From NCBI RefSeq assembly GCF_003018255.1, contig NZ_CP027440.1: a stretch of 64,000 nucleotides of DNA. The stretch is one strand, 5' to 3'. The notes beneath the pieces were generated by a model. The model was given only the letters and a program-made list of their open reading frames with translations, made no database searches and was not told where the DNA came from. The stretch is from Escherichia coli (GTDB lineage: Bacteria > Pseudomonadota > Gammaproteobacteria > Enterobacterales > Enterobacteriaceae). Numbering within the stretch: the first letter of the stretch is position 1; each line of letters opens with the position of its first letter. The translations under genes were made by a program, and so were the position numbers. This document shows positions 8,653 to 62,260 of this stretch, one piece after another.

Positions 8653-11589
<2,937 letters not shown>

Positions 11590-11598
11590 TCAACCCCT

Positions 11599-12546
<948 letters not shown>

Positions 12547-16059: not shown

Positions 16060-17367
<1,308 letters not shown>

Positions 17368-17400
17368 TTTACGCAGCATAACGCGCTAAATTCGCACAAA

Positions 17401-19636: not shown

Positions 19637-19668
19637 TTAACCATTCCCATACAATTAGTTAACCAAAA

Positions 19669-19698
19669 AGGGGGGATTTTATCTCCCCTTTAATTTTT
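19669..19698 (+). terminator. probable terminator after clpX (GGGGA/TCCCC stem, U-rich tail)
   Basis: Hairpin and T-rich run read from sequence. Confidence 0.6.
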
Positions 19699-19713
19699 CC
19701 TCTATTCTCGGCG

Positions 19714-19740
19714 TTGAATGTGGGGGAAACATCCCCATAT
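19714..19740 (+). promoter_or_regulatory. sigma-32 heat-shock promoter of lon (TTGAAT-N13-CCCCATAT)
   Basis: Motifs read about 85-110 nt upstream of lon ATG. Confidence 0.7.
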
Positions 19741-19823
19741 ACTGACGTACATGTTAATAGATGGCGTGAAGCACAGTCGTGTCATCTGATTACCTGGCGG
19801 AAATTAAACTAAGAGAGAGCTCT

Positions 19824-22178
19824 ATGAATCCTGAGCGTTCTGAACGCATTGAAATCCCCGTATTGCCGCTGCGCGATGTGGTGGTTTATCCGCACATGGT
19901 CATCCCCTTATTTGTCGGGCGGGAAAAATCTATCCGTTGTCTGGAAGCGGCGATGGACCATGATAAAAAAATTATGCTGGTCGCGCAGAAAGAAGCTTCA
20001 ACGGATGAGCCGGGTGTAAACGATCTTTTCACCGTCGGGACCGTGGCCTCTATATTGCAGATGCTGAAACTGCCTGACGGCACCGTCAAAGTGCTGGTCG
20101 AGGGGTTACAGCGCGCGCGTATTTCTGCGCTCTCTGACAATGGCGAACACTTTTCTGCGAAGGCGGAGTATCTGGAGTCGCCGACCATTGATGAGCGGGA
20201 ACAGGAAGTGCTGGTGCGTACTGCAATCAGCCAGTTCGAAGGCTACATCAAGCTGAACAAAAAAATCCCACCAGAAGTGCTGACGTCGCTGAATAGCATC
20301 GACGACCCGGCGCGTCTGGCGGATACCATTGCTGCACATATGCCGCTGAAACTGGCTGACAAACAGTCCGTTCTGGAGATGTCCGACGTTAACGAACGTC
20401 TGGAATATCTGATGGCAATGATGGAATCGGAAATCGATCTGCTGCAGGTTGAGAAACGCATTCGCAACCGCGTTAAAAAGCAGATGGAGAAATCCCAGCG
20501 TGAGTACTATCTGAACGAGCAAATGAAAGCTATTCAGAAAGAACTCGGTGAAATGGACGACGCGCCGGACGAAAACGAAGCCCTGAAGCGCAAAATTGAC
20601 GCGGCGAAAATGCCGAAAGAGGCAAAAGAGAAAGCGGAAGCAGAGTTGCAGAAGCTGAAAATGATGTCTCCGATGTCGGCAGAAGCGACCGTAGTGCGTG
20701 GTTATATCGACTGGATGGTACAGGTGCCGTGGAATGCGCGCAGCAAGGTCAAAAAAGACCTGCGTCAGGCGCAGGAAATCCTTGATACCGACCATTATGG
20801 TCTGGAGCGCGTGAAAGATCGCATCCTTGAGTATCTTGCGGTTCAAAGCCGTGTCAACAAAATCAAGGGACCGATCCTCTGCCTGGTAGGGCCGCCGGGG
20901 GTAGGTAAAACCTCTCTTGGTCAGTCCATTGCCAAAGCCACCGGGCGTAAATATGTCCGTATGGCGCTGGGCGGCGTGCGTGATGAAGCGGAAATCCGTG
21001 GTCACCGCCGTACTTACATCGGTTCTATGCCGGGTAAACTGATCCAGAAAATGGCGAAAGTGGGCGTGAAAAACCCGCTGTTCCTGCTCGATGAGATCGA
21101 CAAAATGTCTTCTGACATGCGTGGCGATCCGGCCTCCGCACTGCTTGAAGTGCTGGATCCAGAGCAGAACGTAGCGTTCAGCGACCACTACCTGGAAGTG
21201 GATTACGACCTTAGCGACGTGATGTTTGTCGCGACGTCGAACTCCATGAACATTCCGGCACCGCTGCTGGATCGTATGGAAGTGATTCGCCTCTCCGGTT
21301 ATACCGAAGATGAAAAACTGAACATCGCCAAACGTCACCTGCTGCCGAAGCAGATTGAACGTAATGCACTGAAAAAAGGTGAGCTGACCGTCGACGATAG
21401 CGCCATTATCGGCATTATTCGTTACTACACCCGTGAGGCGGGCGTGCGTGGTCTGGAGCGTGAAATCTCCAAACTGTGTCGCAAAGCGGTTAAGCAGTTA
21501 CTGCTCGATAAGTCATTAAAACATATCGAAATTAACGGCGATAACCTGCATGACTATCTCGGTGTTCAGCGCTTCGACTATGGTCGCGCGGATAACGAAA
21601 ACCGTGTCGGTCAGGTAACTGGTCTGGCGTGGACGGAAGTGGGCGGTGACTTGCTGACCATTGAAACCGCGTGCGTTCCGGGTAAAGGCAAACTGACCTA
21701 TACCGGATCGCTTGGCGAAGTGATGCAGGAGTCCATTCAGGCGGCGTTAACGGTGGTTCGTGCGCGTGCGGAAAAACTGGGGATCAACCCTGATTTTTAT
21801 GAAAAACGCGACATCCACGTCCACGTACCGGAAGGTGCGACGCCGAAAGATGGTCCGAGTGCCGGTATTGCTATGTGCACCGCGCTGGTTTCTTGCCTGA
21901 CCGGTAACCCGGTTCGTGCTGATGTGGCAATGACCGGTGAGATCACTCTGCGTGGTCAGGTACTGCCTATCGGTGGTTTGAAAGAAAAACTACTGGCAGC
22001 GCATCGCGGCGGGATCAAAACAGTGTTAATTCCGTTCGAAAATAAACGCGATCTGGAAGAGATTCCTGACAACGTAATTGCCGATCTGGATATTCATCCT
22101 GTGAAACGCATTGAGGAAGTTCTGACTCTGGCGCTGCAAAATGAACCGTCTGGCATGCAGGTTGTGACTGCAAAATAG
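19824..22178 (+). CDS. lon: Lon protease
   Basis: Track ORF 19779..22178 trimmed to [16 protein letters not shown] (784 aa); Walker A GPPGVGKT; catalytic Ser in PKDGPSAG. Confidence 0.97.
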
Positions 22179-29318: not shown

Positions 29319-29777
29319 ATGTTAGATAAAATTGACCGTAAGCTGCTGGCCTTACTACAGCAGGATTGTACCCTCTCTTTGCAGGCACTGGCTGAAGCCG
29401 TTAATCTGACAACCACCCCGTGCTGGAAGCGTCTGAAACGGCTGGAGGACGACGGTATTCTTATCGGCAAAGTCGCCCTGCTGGATCCGGAAAAAATAGG
29501 CCTCGGCCTGACCGCCTTTGTGCTGATAAAAACGCAACATCACAGCAGCGAATGGTATTGCCGCTTTGTCACGGTGGTTACCGAAATGCCAGAAGTGCTG
29601 GGGTTCTGGCGCATGGCCGGTGAATACGATTATCTGATGCGCGTCCAGGTTGCCGACATGAAACGCTACGACGAGTTTTATAAGCGTTTGGTAAACAGCG
29701 TGCCGGGGCTGTCGGACGTCACTTCCAGCTTCGCGATGGAACAGATTAAATACACCACTTCTTTACCCATCGAATAA
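29319..29777 (+). CDS. decR: Lrp/AsnC-family transcriptional regulator DecR (YbaO)
   Basis: Track ORF 29091..29777 trimmed to [16 protein letters not shown] (152 aa). Confidence 0.9.
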
Positions 29778-36315: not shown

Positions 36316-36885
36316 ATGAAACTCGTGCACATGGCCAGTGGTTTAGCGGTTGCGATTGCGTTGGCGGCTTGCGCAGATAAAAGCGCGGATATTCAGACGC
36401 CAGCACCGGCTGCAAATACGTCTATTTCAGCAACACAACCTGCTATCCAGCAACCGAATGTCTCCGGTACCGTCTGGATCCGTCAGAAAGTCGCACTGCC
36501 GCCTGATGCTGTGCTGACCGTGACACTTTCTGACGCGTCGTTAGCCGATGCGCCGTCAAAAGTGCTGGCGCAGAAAGCGGTGCGTACCGAAGGTAAACAG
36601 TCACCATTCAGCTTTGTTCTGCCATTTAACCCGGCAGATGTTCAGCCGAACGCGCGTATTCTATTGAGTGCGGCGATTACCGTGAATGACAAACTGGTAT
36701 TTATTACCGATACCGTTCAGCCGGTGATCAATCAGGGCGGAACTAAAGCCGACCTGACATTGGTGCCGGTGCAGCAAACCGCCGTGCCGGTTCAGGCCAG
36801 CGGTGGCGCAACGGCTACCGTACCTTCGACTTCACCAACTCAGGTGAATCCGTCTTCGGCAGTTCCAGCTCCTACGCAATATTAA
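36316..36885 (+). CDS. ybaY: lipoprotein YbaY
   Basis: Track ORF 189 aa; signal peptide with lipobox LAAC; AAGGAGA Shine-Dalgarno 5 nt upstream. Confidence 0.88.
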   Translation: MKLVHMASGLAVAIALAACADKSADIQTPAPAANTSISATQPAIQQPNVSGTVWIRQKVALPPDAVLTVTLSDASLADAPSKVLAQKAVRTEGKQSPFSFVLPFNPADVQPNARILLSAAITVNDKLVFITDTVQPVINQGGTKADLTLVPVQQTAVPVQASGGATATVPSTSPTQVNPSSAVPAPTQY

Positions 36886-37381: not shown

Positions 37382-37495
37382 GGGGGCTCTGTTGGTTCTC
37401 CCGCAACGCTACTCTGTTTACCAGGTCAGGTCCGGAAGGAAGCAGCCAAGGCAGATGACGCGTGTGCCGGGATGTAGCTGGCAGGGCCCCCACCC
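37382..37495 (+). ncRNA. ffs: 4.5S RNA (signal recognition particle RNA), 114 nt
   Basis: Sequence GGGGGCUCUGUUGGUUCUCCCGCAACGC...GGCAGGGCCCCCACCC read directly; matches 4.5S RNA including the conserved GGAA tetraloop region. Confidence 0.95.
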
Positions 37496-41268: not shown

Positions 41269-41643
41269 CTAACAAGATAAACTCGCAGGATTCTCTTTCG
41301 TCGCATTGACAAAACAACGGAATAGTCGATTACCTGACTTCCGCCATTTCTGAAGATCCTGCATATTAATACCATAACTACTGAACAACATAAAGGTGTC
41401 ATCCAGATATTCGTCGATCTGCTCAATGAGCTTATTGTCTTCATTATACTTAATTTTGTAATTAAGTGCGAAGGTCGCAATATGCTCAATCAGTTCATTC
41501 AACTGGAGGTTGATCGCCGAGGTTGGGTCGTTAACCCAGCCATGATTGCTTTCTTCAAGGTTTGCAAGACAGTCATGATACAGGGTTTCACAGAGAAACT
41601 TAAGCTGCGCGATATCATGTCTTTTGGGTGAGTATTCATCCAT
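41269..41643 (-). CDS. tomB: Hha toxicity modulator TomB
   Basis: Track ORF 124 aa; 25 nt upstream of hha (tomB-hha operon). Confidence 0.93.
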
Positions 41644-53026: not shown

Positions 53027-54958
53027 ATGAGTTATCAGGTCTTAGCCCGAAAATGGCGCCCACAAACCTTTGCTGACGTCGTCGGCCAGGAACATGTGCT
53101 GACCGCACTGGCGAACGGCTTGTCGTTAGGGCGTATTCATCATGCTTATCTTTTTTCCGGCACCCGTGGCGTCGGAAAAACCTCTATCGCCCGACTGCTG
53201 GCGAAGGGGCTAAACTGCGAAACCGGCATTACCGCGACGCCGTGCGGCGTGTGCGATAACTGTCGTGAAATCGAGCAGGGGCGCTTTGTCGATCTGATTG
53301 AAATCGACGCCGCCTCGCGCACTAAAGTTGAAGACACTCGCGACCTGCTGGATAACGTCCAGTACGCTCCGGCGCGTGGTCGTTTCAAAGTTTATCTCAT
53401 CGACGAAGTGCATATGCTGTCGCGTCACAGCTTTAACGCACTGTTAAAAACCCTTGAAGAGCCGCCAGAGCACGTTAAGTTTTTGCTGGCGACGACCGAT
53501 CCGCAGAAATTGCCGGTGACGATTTTGTCACGCTGTCTGCAATTTCATCTCAAGGCGCTGGATGTCGAGCAAATTCGCCATCAGCTTGAGCACATCCTCA
53601 ACGAAGAACATATCGCTCACGAGCCGCGGGCGCTGCAATTGTTGGCACGCGCCGCTGAAGGCAGCCTGCGAGATGCCTTAAGTCTGACCGACCAGGCGAT
53701 TGCCAGCGGTGACGGCCAGGTTTCAACCCAGGCGGTCAGTGCGATGCTGGGTACGCTTGACGACGATCAGGCGTTATCGCTGGTTGAAGCGATGGTCGAG
53801 GCCAACGGCGAGCGCGTAATGGCGCTGATTAATGAAGCTGCTGCCCGTGGTATCGAGTGGGAAGCGTTGCTGGTGGAAATGCTCGGTCTGTTGCATCGTA
53901 TTGCGATGGTACAACTTTCGCCTGCTGCTCTTGGCAACGACATGGCCGCCATTGAGCTGCGGATGCGTGAACTGGCGCGCACCATACCGCCGACGGATAT
54001 TCAGCTTTACTATCAGACGCTGTTGATTGGTCGCAAAGAATTACCGTATGCGCCAGACCGCCGTATGGGTGTTGAGATGACGCTGCTGCGCGCGCTGGCG
54101 TTCCATCCGCGTATGCCGCTGCCTGAGCCAGAAGTGCCACGCCAGTCCTTTGCGCCCGTCGCGCCAACGGCAGTAATGACGCCAACACAGGTGCCGCCGC
54201 AACCGCAATCAGCGCCGCAGCAGGCACCGACTGTACCGCTCCCGGAAACCACCAGCCAGGTGCTGGCGGCGCGCCAGCAGTTGCAGCGCGTGCAGGGAGC
54301 AACCAAAGCAAAAAAGAGTGAACCGGCAGCCGCTACCCGCGCGCGGCCGGTGAATAACGCTGCGCTGGAAAGACTGGCTTCGGTCACCGATCGTGTTCAG
54401 GCGCGCCCGGTGCCATCGGCGCTGGAAAAAGCGCCAGCTAAAAAAGAAGCGTATCGCTGGAAGGCGACCACTCCAGTGATGCAGCAAAAAGAAGTGGTCG
54501 CCACGCCGAAGGCGCTGAAAAAAGCGCTGGAACATGAAAAAACGCCGGAACTGGCGGCGAAGCTGGCGGCAGAAGCCATTGAGCGCGACCCGTGGGCGGC
54601 TCAGGTGAGTCAACTTTCGCTACCAAAACTGGTCGAACAGGTGGCGTTAAATGCCTGGAAAGAGGAGAACGGCAACACGGTGTGTCTGCATTTGCGCTCC
54701 TCTCAGCGTCATCTGAATAACAGTGGCGCACAGCAAAAACTGGCTGAAGCGTTGAGCACGTTAAAAGGTTCAACGGTTGAACTGACTATCGTTGAAGATG
54801 ATAATCCCGCGGTGCGTACGCCGCTGGAATGGCGTCAGGCGATATACGAAGAAAAACTTGCGCAGGCGCGCGAGTCCATTATTGCGGATAATAATATTCA
54901 GACCCTGCGTCGGTTCTTCGATGCGGAGCTGGATGAAGAAAGTATCCGCCCCATTTGA
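53027..54958 (+). CDS. dnaX: DNA polymerase III subunit tau (full-length product)
   Basis: Track ORF 643 aa; Walker A GTRGVGKTS; Zn module CGVCDNC. Confidence 0.97.
   Translation: MSYQVLARKWRPQTFADVVGQEHVLTALANGLSLGRIHHAYLFSGTRGVGKTSIARLLAKGLNCETGITATPCGVCDNCREIEQGRFVDLIEIDAASRTKVEDTRDLLDNVQYAPARGRFKVYLIDEVHMLSRHSFNALLKTLEEPPEHVKFLLATTDPQKLPVTILSRCLQFHLKALDVEQIRHQLEHILNEEHIAHEPRALQLLARAAEGSLRDALSLTDQAIASGDGQVSTQAVSAMLGTLDDDQALSLVEAMVEANGERVMALINEAAARGIEWEALLVEMLGLLHRIAMVQLSPAALGNDMAAIELRMRELARTIPPTDIQLYYQTLLIGRKELPYAPDRRMGVEMTLLRALAFHPRMPLPEPEVPRQSFAPVAPTAVMTPTQVPPQPQSAPQQAPTVPLPETTSQVLAARQQLQRVQGATKAKKSEPAAATRARPVNNAALERLASVTDRVQARPVPSALEKAPAKKEAYRWKATTPVMQQKEVVATPKALKKALEHEKTPELAAKLAAEAIERDPWAAQVSQLSLPKLVEQVALNAWKEENGNTVCLHLRSSQRHLNNSGAQQKLAEALSTLKGSTVELTIVEDDNPAVRTPLEWRQAIYEEKLAQARESIIADNNIQTLRRFFDAELDEESIRPI
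54294..54350 (+). other. dnaX: dnaX programmed -1 ribosomal frameshift cassette producing gamma: SD-like AGGGAG (54294-54299), slippery A_AAA_AAG (54310-54316), -1 frame stop TGA (54319-54321), downstream stem-loop (about 54323-54350)
   Basis: All elements read in the dnaX frame (AAA=Lys429, AAG=Lys430); a -1 shift yields ...K-K-E-stop, a 431-aa gamma. Confidence 0.9.
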
Positions 54959-56054: not shown

Positions 56055-57929
56055 ATGAAAGGACAAGAAACTCGTGGTTTTCAGTCAGAAGTGAAGCAGC
56101 TTCTGCACCTGATGATCCATTCTCTCTATTCCAATAAAGAAATCTTCCTGCGTGAGCTTATCTCTAACGCCTCCGATGCGGCGGACAAGCTGCGTTTCCG
56201 CGCGCTCTCTAACCCGGATCTGTACGAAGGTGATGGCGAACTGCGCGTTCGTGTCTCTTTCGATAAAGACAAGCGCACGCTGACCATCTCCGATAACGGC
56301 GTGGGGATGACCCGCGACGAAGTGATTGACCATCTGGGGACTATCGCTAAATCCGGCACCAAATCATTCCTCGAATCCCTGGGTTCTGACCAGGCGAAAG
56401 ACAGCCAGCTGATCGGTCAGTTTGGTGTTGGTTTCTACTCTGCGTTTATCGTGGCCGACAAAGTGACCGTGCGTACTCGCGCGGCAGGCGAAAAACCAGA
56501 AAACGGTGTTTTCTGGGAATCGGCTGGTGAAGGTGAATACACCGTTGCCGACATCACCAAAGAAGATCGTGGTACTGAAATCACCCTGCATCTGCGTGAA
56601 GGCGAAGACGAGTTCCTCGATGACTGGCGCGTGCGTTCCATCATCAGCAAATACTCCGACCATATCGCGCTGCCGGTAGAGATCGAAAAACGCGAAGAGA
56701 AAGATGGCGAAACCGTTATCTCCTGGGAGAAAATCAACAAAGCGCAGGCGCTGTGGACCCGTAACAAGTCGGAAATCACCGATGAAGAGTACAAAGAGTT
56801 CTACAAACACATCGCCCACGACTTTAACGATCCGCTGACCTGGAGCCACAACCGTGTTGAAGGTAAGCAGGAGTACACCAGCCTGCTGTACATTCCGTCC
56901 CAGGCTCCGTGGGATATGTGGAACCGCGATCATAAACATGGCCTGAAACTGTACGTCCAGCGTGTGTTCATCATGGACGACGCAGAACAGTTCATGCCGA
57001 ACTATCTGCGCTTCGTGCGTGGTCTGATTGACTCCAGCGATCTGCCGCTGAACGTTTCCCGTGAAATCCTCCAGGACAGCACGGTAACGCGTAACCTGCG
57101 CAATGCGCTGACCAAGCGTGTGCTGCAAATGCTGGAAAAACTGGCGAAAGACGACGCGGAAAAATACCAGACCTTCTGGCAACAGTTTGGCCTGGTACTG
57201 AAAGAAGGTCCGGCGGAAGATTTCGCTAACCAGGAAGCGATCGCCAAACTGCTGCGTTTTGCTTCTACCCATACCGATTCTTCTGCGCAGACCGTGTCTC
57301 TGGAAGACTACGTTTCCCGCATGAAAGAAGGGCAGGAGAAAATCTACTATATCACCGCAGACAGTTACGCGGCAGCGAAGAGCAGCCCGCACCTGGAACT
57401 GCTGCGTAAGAAAGGCATCGAAGTTCTGCTGCTTTCCGACCGCATCGATGAGTGGATGATGAACTATCTGACTGAGTTCGACGGTAAACCGTTCCAGTCT
57501 GTGTCTAAAGTTGACGAGTCGCTGGAAAAACTGGCTGACGAAGTTGATGAGAGCGCGAAAGAAGCGGAGAAAGCACTGACTCCGTTCATCGACCGTGTGA
57601 AAGCCCTGCTCGGCGAGCGCGTGAAAGATGTCCGTCTGACTCACCGTCTGACCGATACGCCAGCGATCGTTTCGACCGACGCGGACGAAATGAGCACTCA
57701 GATGGCGAAACTGTTCGCTGCGGCGGGCCAGAAAGTGCCAGAAGTGAAATACATCTTCGAACTGAACCCGGATCACGTACTGGTGAAACGTGCGGCGGAT
57801 ACTGAAGATGAAGCGAAGTTCAGCGAGTGGGTAGAACTGCTGCTGGATCAGGCGCTGCTGGCAGAACGCGGTACGCTGGAAGATCCGAACCTGTTTATTC
57901 GTCGTATGAACCAGCTGCTGGTTTCCTGA
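56055..57929 (+). CDS. htpG: molecular chaperone HtpG (Hsp90)
   Basis: Track ORF 624 aa; GHKL ATPase N-domain. Confidence 0.97.
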
Positions 57930-57933
57930 TGTC

Positions 57934-57972
57934 ATGCCGGATGACCTTCGTGTCATCCGGCATTTTTCTTTT
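57934..57972 (+). terminator. Rho-independent terminator after htpG
   Basis: TGCCGGATGA...TCATCCGGCA 10-bp stem followed by T-rich tail. Confidence 0.85.
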
Positions 57973-58037
57973 CTTCATCTGCACTTTCCGCAAATTATCT
58001 TGCCATTAACCGTTTCAGCCTCAGGTGCCTTTCTTGA

Positions 58038-58754
<717 letters not shown>

Positions 58755-60955: not shown

Positions 60956-62260
60956 ATGAAATTTCCCGGTAAACGTAAATCCAAACATTACTTCCCCGTA
61001 AATGCACGCGATCCGCTGCTTCAGCAATTCCAGCCAGAAAACGAAACCAGCGCTGCCTGGGTAGTGGGTATCGATCAAACGCTGGTCGATATTGAAGCGA
61101 AAGTGGATGATGAATTCATTGAGCGTTATGGATTAAGCGCCGGGCATTCACTGGTGATTGAGGATGACGTTGCCGAAGCGCTTTATCAGGAACTAAAACA
61201 GAAAAACCTGATTACCCATCAGTTTGCGGGTGGCACCATTGGTAACACCATGCACAACTACTCGGTGCTCGCGGACGACCGTTCGGTGCTGCTGGGCGTC
61301 ATGTGCAGCAATATTGAAATTGGCAGCTATGCCTATCGTTACCTGTGTAACACCTCCAGCCGTACCGATCTTAACTATCTACAAGGCGTGGATGGCCCGA
61401 TTGGTCGTTGCTTTACGCTGATTGGCGAGTCCGGGGAACGTACCTTTGCTATCAGCCCTGGCCACATGAACCAGCTGCGGGCTGAAAGTATTCCGGAAGA
61501 TGTGATTGCCGGAGCCTCGGCACTGGTTCTCACCTCTTATCTGGTGCGTTGCAAGCCGGGTGAACCCATGCCGGAAGCAACCATGAAAGCTATTGAGTAC
61601 GCGAAGAAATATAACGTACCGGTGGTGCTGACGCTGGGCACCAAGTTTGTCATTGCCGAGAATCCGCAGTGGTGGCAGCAATTCCTCAAAGACCACGTCT
61701 CTATCCTTGCGATGAACGAAGATGAAGCCGAAGCGTTGACCGGAGAAAGCGATCCGTTGTTGGCATCTGACAAGGCGCTGGACTGGGTTGATCTGGTGCT
61801 GTGTACCGCAGGGCCAATCGGCTTGTATATGGCGGGCTTTACCGAAGACGAAGCGAAACGTAAAACCCAGCATCCGCTGCTGCCGGGTGCTATAGCGGAA
61901 TTTAACCAGTATGAGTTTAGCCGCGCCATGCGCCACAAGGATTGCCAGAATCCGCTGCGTGTCTATTCGCACATTGCGCCGTACATGGGCGGGCCGGAAA
62001 AAATCATGAACACTAATGGAGCAGGGGATGGCGCACTGGCAGCGTTGCTGCATGACATTACCGCCAACAGCTACCACCGTAGCAACGTACCAAACTCCAG
62101 CAAACATAAATTCACCTGGTTAACTTATTCATCGTTAGCGCAGGTGTGTAAATATGCTAACCGTGTGAGCTATCAGGTACTGAACCAGCATTCACCTCGT
62201 TTAACGCGCGGCTTGCCGGAGCGTGAAGACAGCCTGGAAGAGTCTTACTGGGATCGTTAA
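60956..62260 (+). CDS. gsk: inosine-guanosine kinase
   Basis: Track ORF 434 aa, PfkB-family sugar kinase fold. Confidence 0.95.
   Translation: MKFPGKRKSKHYFPVNARDPLLQQFQPENETSAAWVVGIDQTLVDIEAKVDDEFIERYGLSAGHSLVIEDDVAEALYQELKQKNLITHQFAGGTIGNTMHNYSVLADDRSVLLGVMCSNIEIGSYAYRYLCNTSSRTDLNYLQGVDGPIGRCFTLIGESGERTFAISPGHMNQLRAESIPEDVIAGASALVLTSYLVRCKPGEPMPEATMKAIEYAKKYNVPVVLTLGTKFVIAENPQWWQQFLKDHVSILAMNEDEAEALTGESDPLLASDKALDWVDLVLCTAGPIGLYMAGFTEDEAKRKTQHPLLPGAIAEFNQYEFSRAMRHKDCQNPLRVYSHIAPYMGGPEKIMNTNGAGDGALAALLHDITANSYHRSNVPNSSKHKFTWLTYSSLAQVCKYANRVSYQVLNQHSPRLTRGLPEREDSLEESYWDR

What the first reader, a model, noticed from the sequence alone, without database searches (positions are those of the whole stretch)
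56364..57956. Very long antisense ORFs embedded in highly expressed genes (htpG, tig, lon, cyoB)
The ORF track shows a 530-aa ORF antisense to htpG (56364-57956), 433 aa antisense to tig (16078-17379), 410 aa antisense to lon (20106-21338) and 453 aa antisense to cyoB (9523-10884). They are Phe/Arg/Val-rich and are most simply explained by codon bias in the sense genes depleting reverse-complement stop codons, but their sheer length makes them worth one null-model test.
Basis: inference. Interest (0 to 1): 0.2.

Follow-up and report, generated by a model that had tools for sequence, protein, structure and literature searches.

The report
Codon-bias shadow ORFs antisense to htpG
The very long reading frames on the strand opposite htpG, tig, lon and cyoB are real in the sequence, but they are an ordinary, long-known side effect of these highly expressed E. 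coli genes avoiding three rare codons, not hidden genes.

Summary
All four antisense ORFs exist at the stated coordinates in this E. coli dxs–ybaL window. Each is exactly codon-aligned with its sense gene, so an antisense stop can arise only from a sense TTA, CTA or TCA codon. These are rare codons: 2 of 624 in htpG and 1 of 432 in tig, against 2.06% window-wide.

Synonymous shuffling already gives very long antisense frames. For htpG the mean is about 380 stop-free codons against 520 observed (p≈0.08). For tig, p≈0.06. Both become non-significant once the known 5′ enrichment of A/T-rich rare codons is respected.

lon and cyoB nominally exceed their shuffles (p≈0.002–0.02, uncorrected for 54 genes). 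But their ORFs carry premature stops in other E. coli strains, and in 66 of 70 (lon) and 41 of 47 (cyoB) related species.

Stop-creating synonymous variants occur at the same relative rate inside these ORFs as in 37 neighbouring genes (O/E 0.54 in both). The htpG antisense ATG lies inside the htpG terminator hairpin. No Pfam family matches, and the two database hits examined are miscalls.

Merino 1994, Silke 1997 and Mir 2012 described the phenomenon. Only htpG-as (intact in 25 of 25 E. coli) leaves a small residual doubt.

The parts
56055..57929 (+). htpG coding sequence (sense gene, 624 codons); only two TTA/CTA/TCA codons (codons 11 and 104, both TCA)
56364..57956 (-). 530-aa codon-aligned antisense (shadow) ORF in htpG; judged a non-coding by-product
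56364..56366 (+). htpG codon 104 (TCA), which read on the minus strand is the TGA that ends the antisense ORF
57934..57963 (+). htpG intrinsic terminator hairpin (12-bp stem followed by a T-tract); the antisense ORF's ATG (57956-57954) lies inside the stem
16069..17367 (+). tig coding sequence; a single TCA at codon 4
16078..17379 (-). 433-aa codon-aligned antisense ORF in tig; truncated to 324 aa in E. coli O157:H7 SS17
19824..22178 (+). lon coding sequence; TTA/CTA/TCA at codons 29, 59, 95, 559, 564, 565, 642, 723, 735
20106..21338 (-). 410-aa codon-aligned antisense ORF in lon; broken in E. coli strain 98194, in E. albertii and in 66 of 70 Enterobacterales
9586..11577 (-). cyoB coding sequence; all six TTA/CTA/TCA codons lie in the first 232 codons
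9523..10884 (+). 453-aa codon-aligned antisense ORF in cyoB; broken in E. coli O157:H7 SS17 (178 aa), in strain 98194 (377 aa), and in 41 of 47 related species

Best explanation
These are non-coding 'shadow' ORFs produced mechanically by sense-strand codon usage. In the antisense frame that is in register with the sense codons, a stop (TAA, TAG, TGA) appears only where the sense gene uses TTA (Leu), CTA (Leu) or TCA (Ser). E. coli disfavours these three codons, most strongly in highly expressed genes, so htpG, tig, cyoB and lon contain very few of them. The few that occur are concentrated near the 5' end of the sense gene, where A/T-rich rare codons are tolerated or favoured. This leaves the 3' two-thirds or more of each gene free of antisense stops. 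Shown here: the frame geometry, the codon counts, the shuffle distributions, the 5' gradient, the lack of conservation, and the background-level rate of stop-creating variants. Inferred: the selective cause of the codon avoidance (translational selection and 5' mRNA-structure effects), taken from established knowledge and the cited papers.
For: Frame and codon usage:
- All four ORFs are codon-aligned.
- TTA/CTA/TCA counts are 2/624 (htpG), 1/432 (tig), 9/784 (lon) and 6/663 (cyoB), against 2.06% window-wide.
- Codon bias on non-Leu/Ser codons predicts their depletion (rho=-0.65, p=6e-8).

Null models:
- Within-gene synonymous shuffles give a mean of 380-386 stop-free codons for htpG (observed 520, p=0.075-0.086) and about 330 for tig (observed 428, p=0.06).
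- With the first 20-50 codons held fixed, p=0.2-0.3 for htpG and 1.0 for tig.
- Resampling with the codon usage of other high-bias genes gives P=0.04-0.45 for all four.

5' gradient:
- These codons make up 25% of Leu+Ser codons at positions 2-11 and fall to 10.6% after codon 101.
- The gradient is steeper in high-bias genes (2.2-fold vs 1.3-fold), as reported for E. coli by Hockenberry 2014 (PMC4069614) and Bentele 2013 (PMC3964316).

Comparative and population data:
- The lon zone is open in only 4 of 70 species and is broken in E. albertii, whose Lon is 100% identical.
- The cyoB zone is broken in 41 of 47 species.
- The htpG longest run varies from 214 to 613 codons among genera and tracks GC3.
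- tig-as, lon-as and cyoB-as carry premature stops in some of five E. coli strains.
- Stop-creating synonymous variants show O/E 0.54 in the focal zones and 0.54 in 37 other genes.
- htpG synonymous variant density is 0.142 per codon inside the ORF and 0.144 outside.
- 24-26 nucleotide differences in htpG give 0-1 sense but 22-25 antisense amino-acid changes.

Expression signals and homology:
- The antisense ATG lies in the htpG terminator stem and no promoter-like site is found.
- No Pfam family matches, the exact sequences are absent from 15 billion proteins, and only 13 similar clusters exist; the two examined are miscalls.
Against: - lon (p=0.002-0.005) and cyoB (p=0.007-0.02) exceed their own gene-wide shuffles, even with a window-average 5' gradient. 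In lon the stop-free zone does not have stronger codon bias than the rest of the gene.
- In the window, four genes have runs of at least 400 codons against about 1 expected, and 7-9 of 54 genes have p<0.05.
- htpG-as is intact in 25 of 25 E. coli strains, with 0 of 74 in-zone synonymous variants creating a stop. The naive expectation is 5-6 (P=0.002-0.005) and the calibrated expectation is 1.6-3.5 (P=0.03-0.20). Three of 15 variants in codons 1-104 do create such codons.
- No expression data could be examined.
Confidence: 0.95

Rival explanations
1. The htpG antisense ORF (or part of it) is a young, Escherichia-restricted overlapping gene, translated at a low level from an antisense transcript. 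This would resemble the long frame -1 overlapping genes olg1 and olg2 of Pseudomonas aeruginosa.
For: - The ORF is intact at 530 aa in 25 of 25 E. coli strains (20 haplotypes), and the stop-free zone is also intact in E. albertii.
- 0 of 74 in-zone synonymous variants create a stop, while 3 of 15 outside the zone do.
- Long antisense overlapping genes with RiboSeq and mass-spectrometry support exist in P. aeruginosa and are likewise species-restricted (PMC8850804).
Against: - ORF length is within the synonymous-shuffle expectation (p=0.08-0.3).
- After calibration on other genes, the absence of stop-creating variants is not significant (P(0)=0.06-0.10 in the conditional test; 0.03-0.20).
- The 3-of-5 rate in codons 1-104 equals the general rate for the first 100 codons of other genes (12/28 vs 29/120 later).
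- Synonymous diversity is not reduced in the overlap (0.142 vs 0.144 per codon).
- The start codon is buried in a -23 kcal/mol terminator hairpin and no promoter-like site is found.
- E. albertii lacks that start, and Salmonella, Atlantibacter, Cedecea and Erwinia have stops at different positions.
- There are no domain hits and no genuine database homologs.
- The locus is not named in the searched E. coli initiation-profiling or overlapping-gene papers.
Confidence: 0.03
2. The antisense frames are kept open by direct selection on the sense mRNA that is not about tRNA supply. One candidate is avoidance of UA-containing or A-ending codons because of mRNA cleavage or stability. The open antisense frame would still be a by-product, but of a different sense-strand pressure.
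For: - Two of the three codons contain TA.
- TTA alone drives most of the clustering signal in the window (12.8% of genes at p<0.05, vs 3.0% for CTA and 2.4% for TCA).
- General UA under-representation in bacterial coding sequence is established knowledge and was not tested here.
Against: - Depletion correlates strongly with a codon-bias index built from unrelated amino acids (rho=-0.65), as expected from translational selection.
- Other rare A-ending codons without TA show the same 5' gradient.
- No test here separates the two pressures.
Confidence: 0.15
3. The ORFs are relics of an ancient complementary-strand coding system. This idea was raised for frame -1 ORFs by Merino et al. 1994, and for long antisense ORFs in heat-shock genes (the latter from my own knowledge).
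For: - htpG, lon and tig are ancient chaperone or protease genes.
- Frame -1 ORFs are a widespread phenomenon (Mir 2012, citing Merino 1994).
Against: - ORF extents differ between genera, and even between strains.
- The antisense translation changes at nearly every sense-synonymous substitution.
- There is no detectable protein family.
Confidence: 0.005

Closest known systems
Frame -1 'shadow' ORFs caused by codon bias of highly expressed genes (Merino et al. 1994; Silke 1997; Mir et al. 2012, PMC3454372)
   Same: - The antisense frame is codon-aligned.
- Stops arise only from sense TTA/CTA/TCA.
- The longest examples lie in high-codon-bias E. coli genes.
[quoted passage not shown]
   Different: Nothing essential differs. 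This analysis adds that the 5'-to-3' rare-codon gradient, steeper in high-bias genes, further lengthens the open run.
Experimentally supported long antisense overlapping genes: olg1 and olg2 in Pseudomonas aeruginosa (Kreitmeier et al. 2022, PMC8850804); pop, ano, laoB and others in E. coli O157:H7
   Same: - A long ORF is embedded antisense in an annotated gene (frame -1 for olg1 and olg2).
- Intactness is restricted to one species or genus (true of htpG-as).
   Different: - Those genes have RNA-seq, RiboSeq and (for olg1 and olg2) mass-spectrometry evidence, mapped transcription starts, ORF lengths significant under the synonymous-mutation test, and reduced synonymous variation in the mother gene.
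- Here the length tests are non-significant for htpG and tig.
- Synonymous variation is not reduced.
- Three of the four ORFs are polymorphic for premature stops.
- The htpG-as start lies in a terminator hairpin.
- No expression evidence is available.
Position-dependent codon usage at gene starts in E. coli (Bentele et al. 2013, PMC3964316; Hockenberry et al. 2014, PMC4069614)
   Same: - A/T-rich rare codons are enriched near the 5' end.
- Positional dependence is stronger in highly expressed genes.
- Both are seen here for TTA/CTA/TCA.
   Different: Those papers concern sense-strand translation and do not discuss the consequence for antisense ORF length.

Membership tests
Codon-bias by-product (shadow) ORF in frame -1 | The ORF is in the antisense frame in register with the sense codons, so its stops correspond to sense TTA/CTA/TCA | tested here: met
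   Register is 0 for all four ORFs.
Codon-bias by-product (shadow) ORF in frame -1 | The sense gene is depleted of TTA/CTA/TCA in proportion to its overall codon bias | tested here: met
   These codons make up 0.23-1.15% of codons in the four genes vs 2.06% window-wide. Spearman rho=-0.65 with Fop computed on non-Leu/Ser codons.
Codon-bias by-product (shadow) ORF in frame -1 | Synonymous-codon shuffles that preserve the protein and the gene's codon usage give comparably long antisense ORFs | tested here: inconclusive
   Met for htpG (p=0.08; 0.12 with the gradient; 0.2-0.3 with 5' codons fixed) and tig (0.06; 0.13; 1.0). lon (0.002-0.01) and cyoB (0.007-0.047) nominally exceed the shuffles but do not survive correction for 54 genes.
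Codon-bias by-product (shadow) ORF in frame -1 | ORF extent is not conserved among strains or species beyond what codon usage predicts | tested here: met
   The lon zone is open in 4 of 70 species. The cyoB zone is broken in 41 of 47. htpG runs range from 214 to 613 codons. tig is interrupted at varying positions. Three of the four ORFs are truncated in some E. coli strains.
Functional antisense overlapping gene (OLG) | Depletion of stop-creating variants in the overlap, beyond the genomic background | tested here: not met
   O/E is 0.54 in the focal zones and 0.54 in 37 other genes (0.31 in other high-bias genes). For htpG alone, P(0)=0.06-0.10 in the conditional test.
Functional antisense overlapping gene (OLG) | Reduced synonymous variation of the mother gene across the overlap | tested here: not met
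   htpG has 0.142 synonymous variants per codon inside the ORF and 0.144 outside. Pi at 4-fold sites is 0.039 (n=242) vs 0.059 (n=54), which is noisy.
Functional antisense overlapping gene (OLG) | Intact ORF conserved throughout a clade | tested here: inconclusive
   htpG-as is intact in 25 of 25 E. coli strains but has lost its start in E. albertii and is broken in Salmonella and other genera. The other three ORFs are not conserved even within E. coli.
Functional antisense overlapping gene (OLG) | Own promoter and an accessible ribosome-binding site and start codon | tested here: not met
   No promoter-like site on either strand in 57850-58150. The ATG lies within the 12-bp terminator stem (-23.3 kcal/mol, z=-5.8). 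This consensus scan is a weak test.
Functional antisense overlapping gene (OLG) | Evidence of antisense transcription and translation (strand-specific RNA-seq, Ribo-seq or initiation profiling, mass spectrometry) | not testable with these tools
   No raw data are accessible. The searched papers and 18 supplementary files do not name these loci, though they may use locus tags.
Functional antisense overlapping gene (OLG) | The protein product is recognisable (family, homologs) or has gene-like coding statistics | tested here: not met
   No Pfam hit. The exact sequences are absent from 15 billion proteins. 13 similar clusters exist, and the two examined are miscalls. Codon log-likelihood is -0.00 to 0.25 bits/codon, vs 0.10-0.68 for real genes.

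The most novel reading that the evidence does not exclude
The 530-aa ORF antisense to htpG is intact in all 25 sampled E. coli strains, and none of 74 in-zone synonymous variants creates a stop. It could be a young, Escherichia-restricted overlapping gene, or at least a translated proto-gene, embedded in the bacterial Hsp90 gene. That would be analogous to olg1 and olg2 of Pseudomonas aeruginosa.
Probability: 0.03. Interest if true: 0.6.

Novelty: already known. Interest (0 to 1): 0.06.

Why it matters
As it stands it matters little. It is a textbook example of why gene finders discard 'shadow' ORFs, and a reminder that ORF length alone is not evidence of coding.

The practical lessons are methodological:
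- A null model for antisense ORF length must preserve the gene's own codon usage and its 5'-to-3' rare-codon gradient. Otherwise highly expressed genes throw up false positives.
- A naive neutral expectation for stop-creating variants overestimates by about two- to three-fold, because these codons are selected against everywhere.
- Public protein collections contain shadow-ORF miscalls that come from scaffold gaps and from bisulfite-converted reads.

If, against the evidence, htpG-as were translated, a 530-residue overlapping gene inside E. coli's Hsp90 gene would be a striking addition to the debate on overlapping genes.

Tried and rejected
- **General excess clustering.** In the window, TTA/CTA/TCA clustered more than any control set: 0 of 100 random frequency-matched triples, 0 of 22 rare-A-ending triples and 0 of 15 Leu/Ser triples reached the real 15-17% of genes at p<0.05. 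This looked like a specific signal. In 367 ortholog gene-instances with the first 20 codons fixed, the real set (7.5%) was within the control ranges (4.9±2.0%, and 7.0±1.6% with 8 of 15 reaching it). I attribute the window excess to the 5' gradient plus small-sample noise.
- **Local AT-richness or low-bias neighbourhoods as the cause of clustering.** Not supported: the local GC3 difference is -0.006 vs +0.002, p=0.1.
- **Regional codon-bias differences within the gene.** These explain cyoB (CTG share 0.86 vs 0.55, p=0.014) but not lon.
- **P0122 as a diverged natural homolog of htpG-as** (530 aa, 79% identical). Rejected: its contigs differ from htpG by 350 G-to-A changes out of 372, the signature of bisulfite-type conversion. 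The sense frame has 11 stops, and the antisense 'protein' needs TAG/TAA read as Gln.
- **P0121.** This shadow ORF was called only because htpG is interrupted by a 77-N scaffold gap.
- **The naive neutral test for htpG** (P=0.002-0.014). Rejected as miscalibrated after measuring the same ratio in other genes.
- **Merino 1994** (PMC308092) is not held and is cited only through Mir 2012.
- **Structure prediction** of the antisense products was not attempted. With no alignment it would be uninformative.
Full report
**Observation.** The window is an E. coli chromosome segment from dxs to ybaL, 99.8% identical to NZ_CP116067.1.
- 56364-57956(-), 530 aa, inside htpG (56055-57929 +).
- 16078-17379(-), 433 aa, over tig (16069-17367 +).
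- 20106-21338(-), 410 aa, inside lon (19824-22178 +).
- 9523-10884(+), 453 aa, over the 3' two-thirds of cyoB (9586-11577 -).

Three of the products are Phe/Arg/Val/Gln-rich (Phe 13-18% vs 3.9% in the window's real genes). cyoB-as is not Phe-rich.

**Anatomy.** All four ORFs are in the antisense frame that is exactly in register with the sense codons. In that frame an antisense stop can arise only from a sense TTA, CTA or TCA codon. htpG has 2 such codons in 624 (codons 11 and 104, both TCA). tig has 1 in 432 (codon 4). cyoB has 6 in 663, all within the first 232 codons. lon has 9 in 784, at codons 29, 59 and 95 and then from 559 onward. Window-wide these codons make up 2.06% of codons. Each antisense ORF ends at the innermost 5'-proximal rare codon. 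For example, htpG codon 104 (56364-56366) is the antisense TGA. Across the 56 mapped genes, the frequency of these three codons falls with codon bias measured only on non-Leu/Ser codons (Spearman rho=-0.65, p=6e-8). tig, htpG and cyoB rank 1st, 6th and 7th by that index.

- Resampling with window-average synonymous usage gives expected longest stop-free runs of only 152-175 codons (P<=0.003 for all four). The ORFs are therefore 'too long' for an average gene.
- Permuting synonymous codons within each gene, which keeps the protein and that gene's codon usage, gives a mean of 380-386 stop-free codons for htpG (observed 520, p=0.075-0.086). For tig the mean is about 330 (observed 428, p=0.06).
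- The same permutation gives 223-226 for lon (observed 463, p=0.001-0.004) and 239-242 for cyoB (observed 431, p=0.007-0.012).
- The two non-aligned antisense frames are unremarkable in all four genes.
- With the codon usage of the other high-bias genes in the window, P=0.04-0.45 for all four.

**The 5' gradient.** TTA/CTA/TCA make up 25% of Leu+Ser codons at positions 2-11, then 19%, 15% and 14% in successive bins, and 10.6% beyond codon 101. Other rare A-ending codons show the same trend. The gradient is steeper in high-bias genes: 2.2-fold, or 1.9-fold without the four focal genes, against 1.3-fold in low-bias genes. This agrees with published work on E. coli (Bentele 2013, PMC3964316; Hockenberry 2014, PMC4069614). 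Holding the first 20 or 50 codons fixed gives p=0.32 and 0.21 for htpG, and 1.0 for tig. lon stays at 0.005-0.01 and cyoB at 0.035-0.047. The stop-free zone of cyoB also has locally stronger bias (CTG share of the other Leu codons 0.86 vs 0.55, p=0.014). The lon zone does not.

**A possible general signal, followed up.** In the window, 8-9 of 54 genes had p<0.05, including gsk, decR and tomB. No control codon set reached that level. A gradient-aware null still left 7 of 54, and it gave about 1 expected gene with a run of at least 400 codons against 4 observed. Local GC3 or codon-bias neighbourhoods did not explain this. I then tested 367 gene-instances (tig, clpP, clpX, lon and ppiD in about 75 Enterobacterales), with the first 20 codons held fixed. 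The real codon set gave 7.5% at p<0.05. That lies within the range of random matched triples (4.9±2.0%; 4 of 40 reach it) and of non-optimal Leu/Ser triples (7.0±1.6%; 8 of 15 reach it). So there is no specific tendency to keep antisense frames open. lon alone remains somewhat clustered across species (16.5%), because TTA/CTA/TCA recur in its first ~100 codons, with codon 59 affected in 47 of 70 species.

**Comparative evidence.**
- *lon.* The E. coli stop-free zone (codons 96-558) is open in only 4 of 70 equal-length orthologs. In E. albertii, whose Lon is 100% identical, the longest run is 286 codons. The median across 79 species is 256 codons at varying positions, with median shuffle p of 0.38.
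- *cyoB.* 41 of 47 partial orthologs have stops inside the E. coli zone.
- *tig.* The frame stays long (median 377 of 432), as expected for a gene with 0-5 such codons, but it is cut at different positions in about half of the species.
- *htpG.* The longest run is 613 codons in Enterobacter and Kosakonia (GC3 0.72-0.75) and 520 in E. albertii. It is 455 in Cedecea, 353 and 232 in two Salmonella, 260 in Atlantibacter and 214 in Erwinia, with the breaks at lineage-specific positions.

**Within E. coli.** Among five strains, three of the four ORFs carry premature stops somewhere:
- tig-as is cut to 324 aa in O157:H7 SS17.
- lon-as is cut to 361 aa in strain 98194.
- cyoB-as is cut to 178 aa in O157:H7 SS17 and to 377 aa in strain 98194.

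Synonymous variants that create TTA/CTA/TCA occur in the four zones at 5 observed vs 9.3 naively expected (O/E 0.54). That is the same ratio as in 37 other genes of the region (41 vs 75.4, O/E 0.54), and higher than in other high-bias genes (0.31).

**The primary locus in more depth.** htpG-as is intact in 25 of 25 strains (20 haplotypes). None of 74 in-zone synonymous variants creates a stop, whereas 3 of 15 in codons 1-104 do. Taken naively this looks significant (P=0.002-0.005), but three observations argue against reading it as selection:
- Only 10 in-zone variants fall at codons one step from a stop-complement codon, with 2.1-2.4 stop-creating variants expected from comparable genes (P(0)=0.06-0.10).
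- Other genes show the same 5' excess in polymorphism (12 of 28 in the first 100 codons vs 29 of 120 later).
- Synonymous variant density is equal inside and outside the ORF (0.142 vs 0.144 per codon).

Between strains, 24-26 nucleotide differences in htpG change 0-1 HtpG residues but 22-25 residues of the antisense translation.

**Expression signals and homology.**
- The antisense ATG (57956-57954) sits inside the 12-bp stem of the htpG intrinsic terminator (57934-57963). As antisense RNA the hairpin folds at -23.3 kcal/mol (z=-5.8). No sigma-70-like site is found on either strand in 57850-58150.
- None of the four translations hits a Pfam family, and none exists as an exact sequence among about 15 billion proteins.
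- Only 13 clusters in 5.8 billion resemble htpG-as, against more than 8,000 (capped) for HtpG.
- The two best of those 13 are artefacts. One comes from a scaffold in which htpG is split by 77 Ns. The other comes from contigs carrying 350 G-to-A changes out of 372, the signature of bisulfite-type conversion, and was translated with TAG/TAA read as Gln.
- Codon-usage log-likelihood for the antisense ORFs (-0.00 to 0.25 bits/codon) lies at or below the bottom of the real-gene range (0.10-0.68).

**Literature.** Mir et al. 2012 (PMC3454372) summarise that Merino et al. 1994 described long frame -1 ORFs as a general phenomenon caused mainly by codon usage, and that Silke 1997 explained most of them by biased codon usage. 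[quoted passage not shown] Genuine long antisense overlapping genes do exist (P. aeruginosa olg1 and olg2, PMC8850804), but those rest on RiboSeq, mass spectrometry, significant length tests and reduced synonymous variation. None of that is seen here. E. coli initiation-profiling papers and the EDL933 overlapping-gene screen do not name these loci in their text or in the 18 searchable supplements, although those may use locus tags.

**Verdict.** These are codon-bias shadow ORFs, lengthened further by the 5' rare-codon gradient of highly expressed genes. They are already known as a class and of low interest. The only residual uncertainty is the uninterrupted htpG antisense frame within E. coli. 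I give it about a 3% chance of reflecting a young translated ORF. Strand-specific initiation profiling and a survey of all matching genomes would settle it.

Noticed in passing
window 16078-16080 (tig codon 4), 56085-56087 (htpG codon 11), 19998-20000 (lon codon 59): Individual rare TCA codons near the 5' ends are retained across many Enterobacterales despite otherwise saturated synonymous divergence. tig codon 4 and htpG codon 11 are TCA in most species examined. lon codon 59 is TTA, CTA or TCA in 47 of 70 species, and codons 29, 78 and 95 also recur. This may reflect 5' mRNA-structure or translation-ramp constraints.
   Followed up: partly
L105 and L106 (Logan contigs ERR1356766_389 and ERR3578264_498), protein P0122: Public assembled contigs of E. 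coli htpG carry 350 G-to-A changes out of 372 differences, apparently bisulfite-converted reads. They yielded a spurious 530-aa 'protein' called on the antisense strand with TAG/TAA read as Gln. This is a contamination class in large protein collections.
   Followed up: yes
L107 (ENA scaffold SHAO19-1_SAMEA5617766_METAG-scaffold_1378), protein P0121: A 77-N scaffold gap interrupts htpG, and the gene caller annotated the 426-aa antisense shadow ORF in its place.
   Followed up: yes
window 19657-19752 (-): Rfam finds the sRNA sraA (106.7 bits) on the minus strand in the clpX-lon intergenic region, just upstream of lon. It is separate from the lon antisense ORF. Rfam also finds the dnaX frameshift element (54291-54355 +) and the 4.5S/SRP RNA ffs (37390-37486 +).
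   Followed up: no
window 58110-58754 (adk) and 58074-58625 (-): adk and ybaB contain no TTA/CTA/TCA codon at all, so their entire codon-aligned antisense frames are open (183-aa ORF antisense to adk). This is the same phenomenon in shorter genes.
   Followed up: partly
window 60956-62260 (gsk), 29319-29777 (decR), 41269-41643 (tomB): These low- or medium-bias genes also show TTA/CTA/TCA clustering beyond within-gene shuffles (p=0.003-0.009). Orthologs were not checked. The result is compatible with multiple testing plus the 5' gradient.
   Followed up: no
window 11599-12546 (cyoA) and 36316-36885 (ybaY): Relative to the closest complete genome (NZ_CP116067.1), cyoA is 948 nt instead of 957 and ybaY is 570 nt instead of 573. 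These are small in-frame length differences between strains.
   Followed up: no
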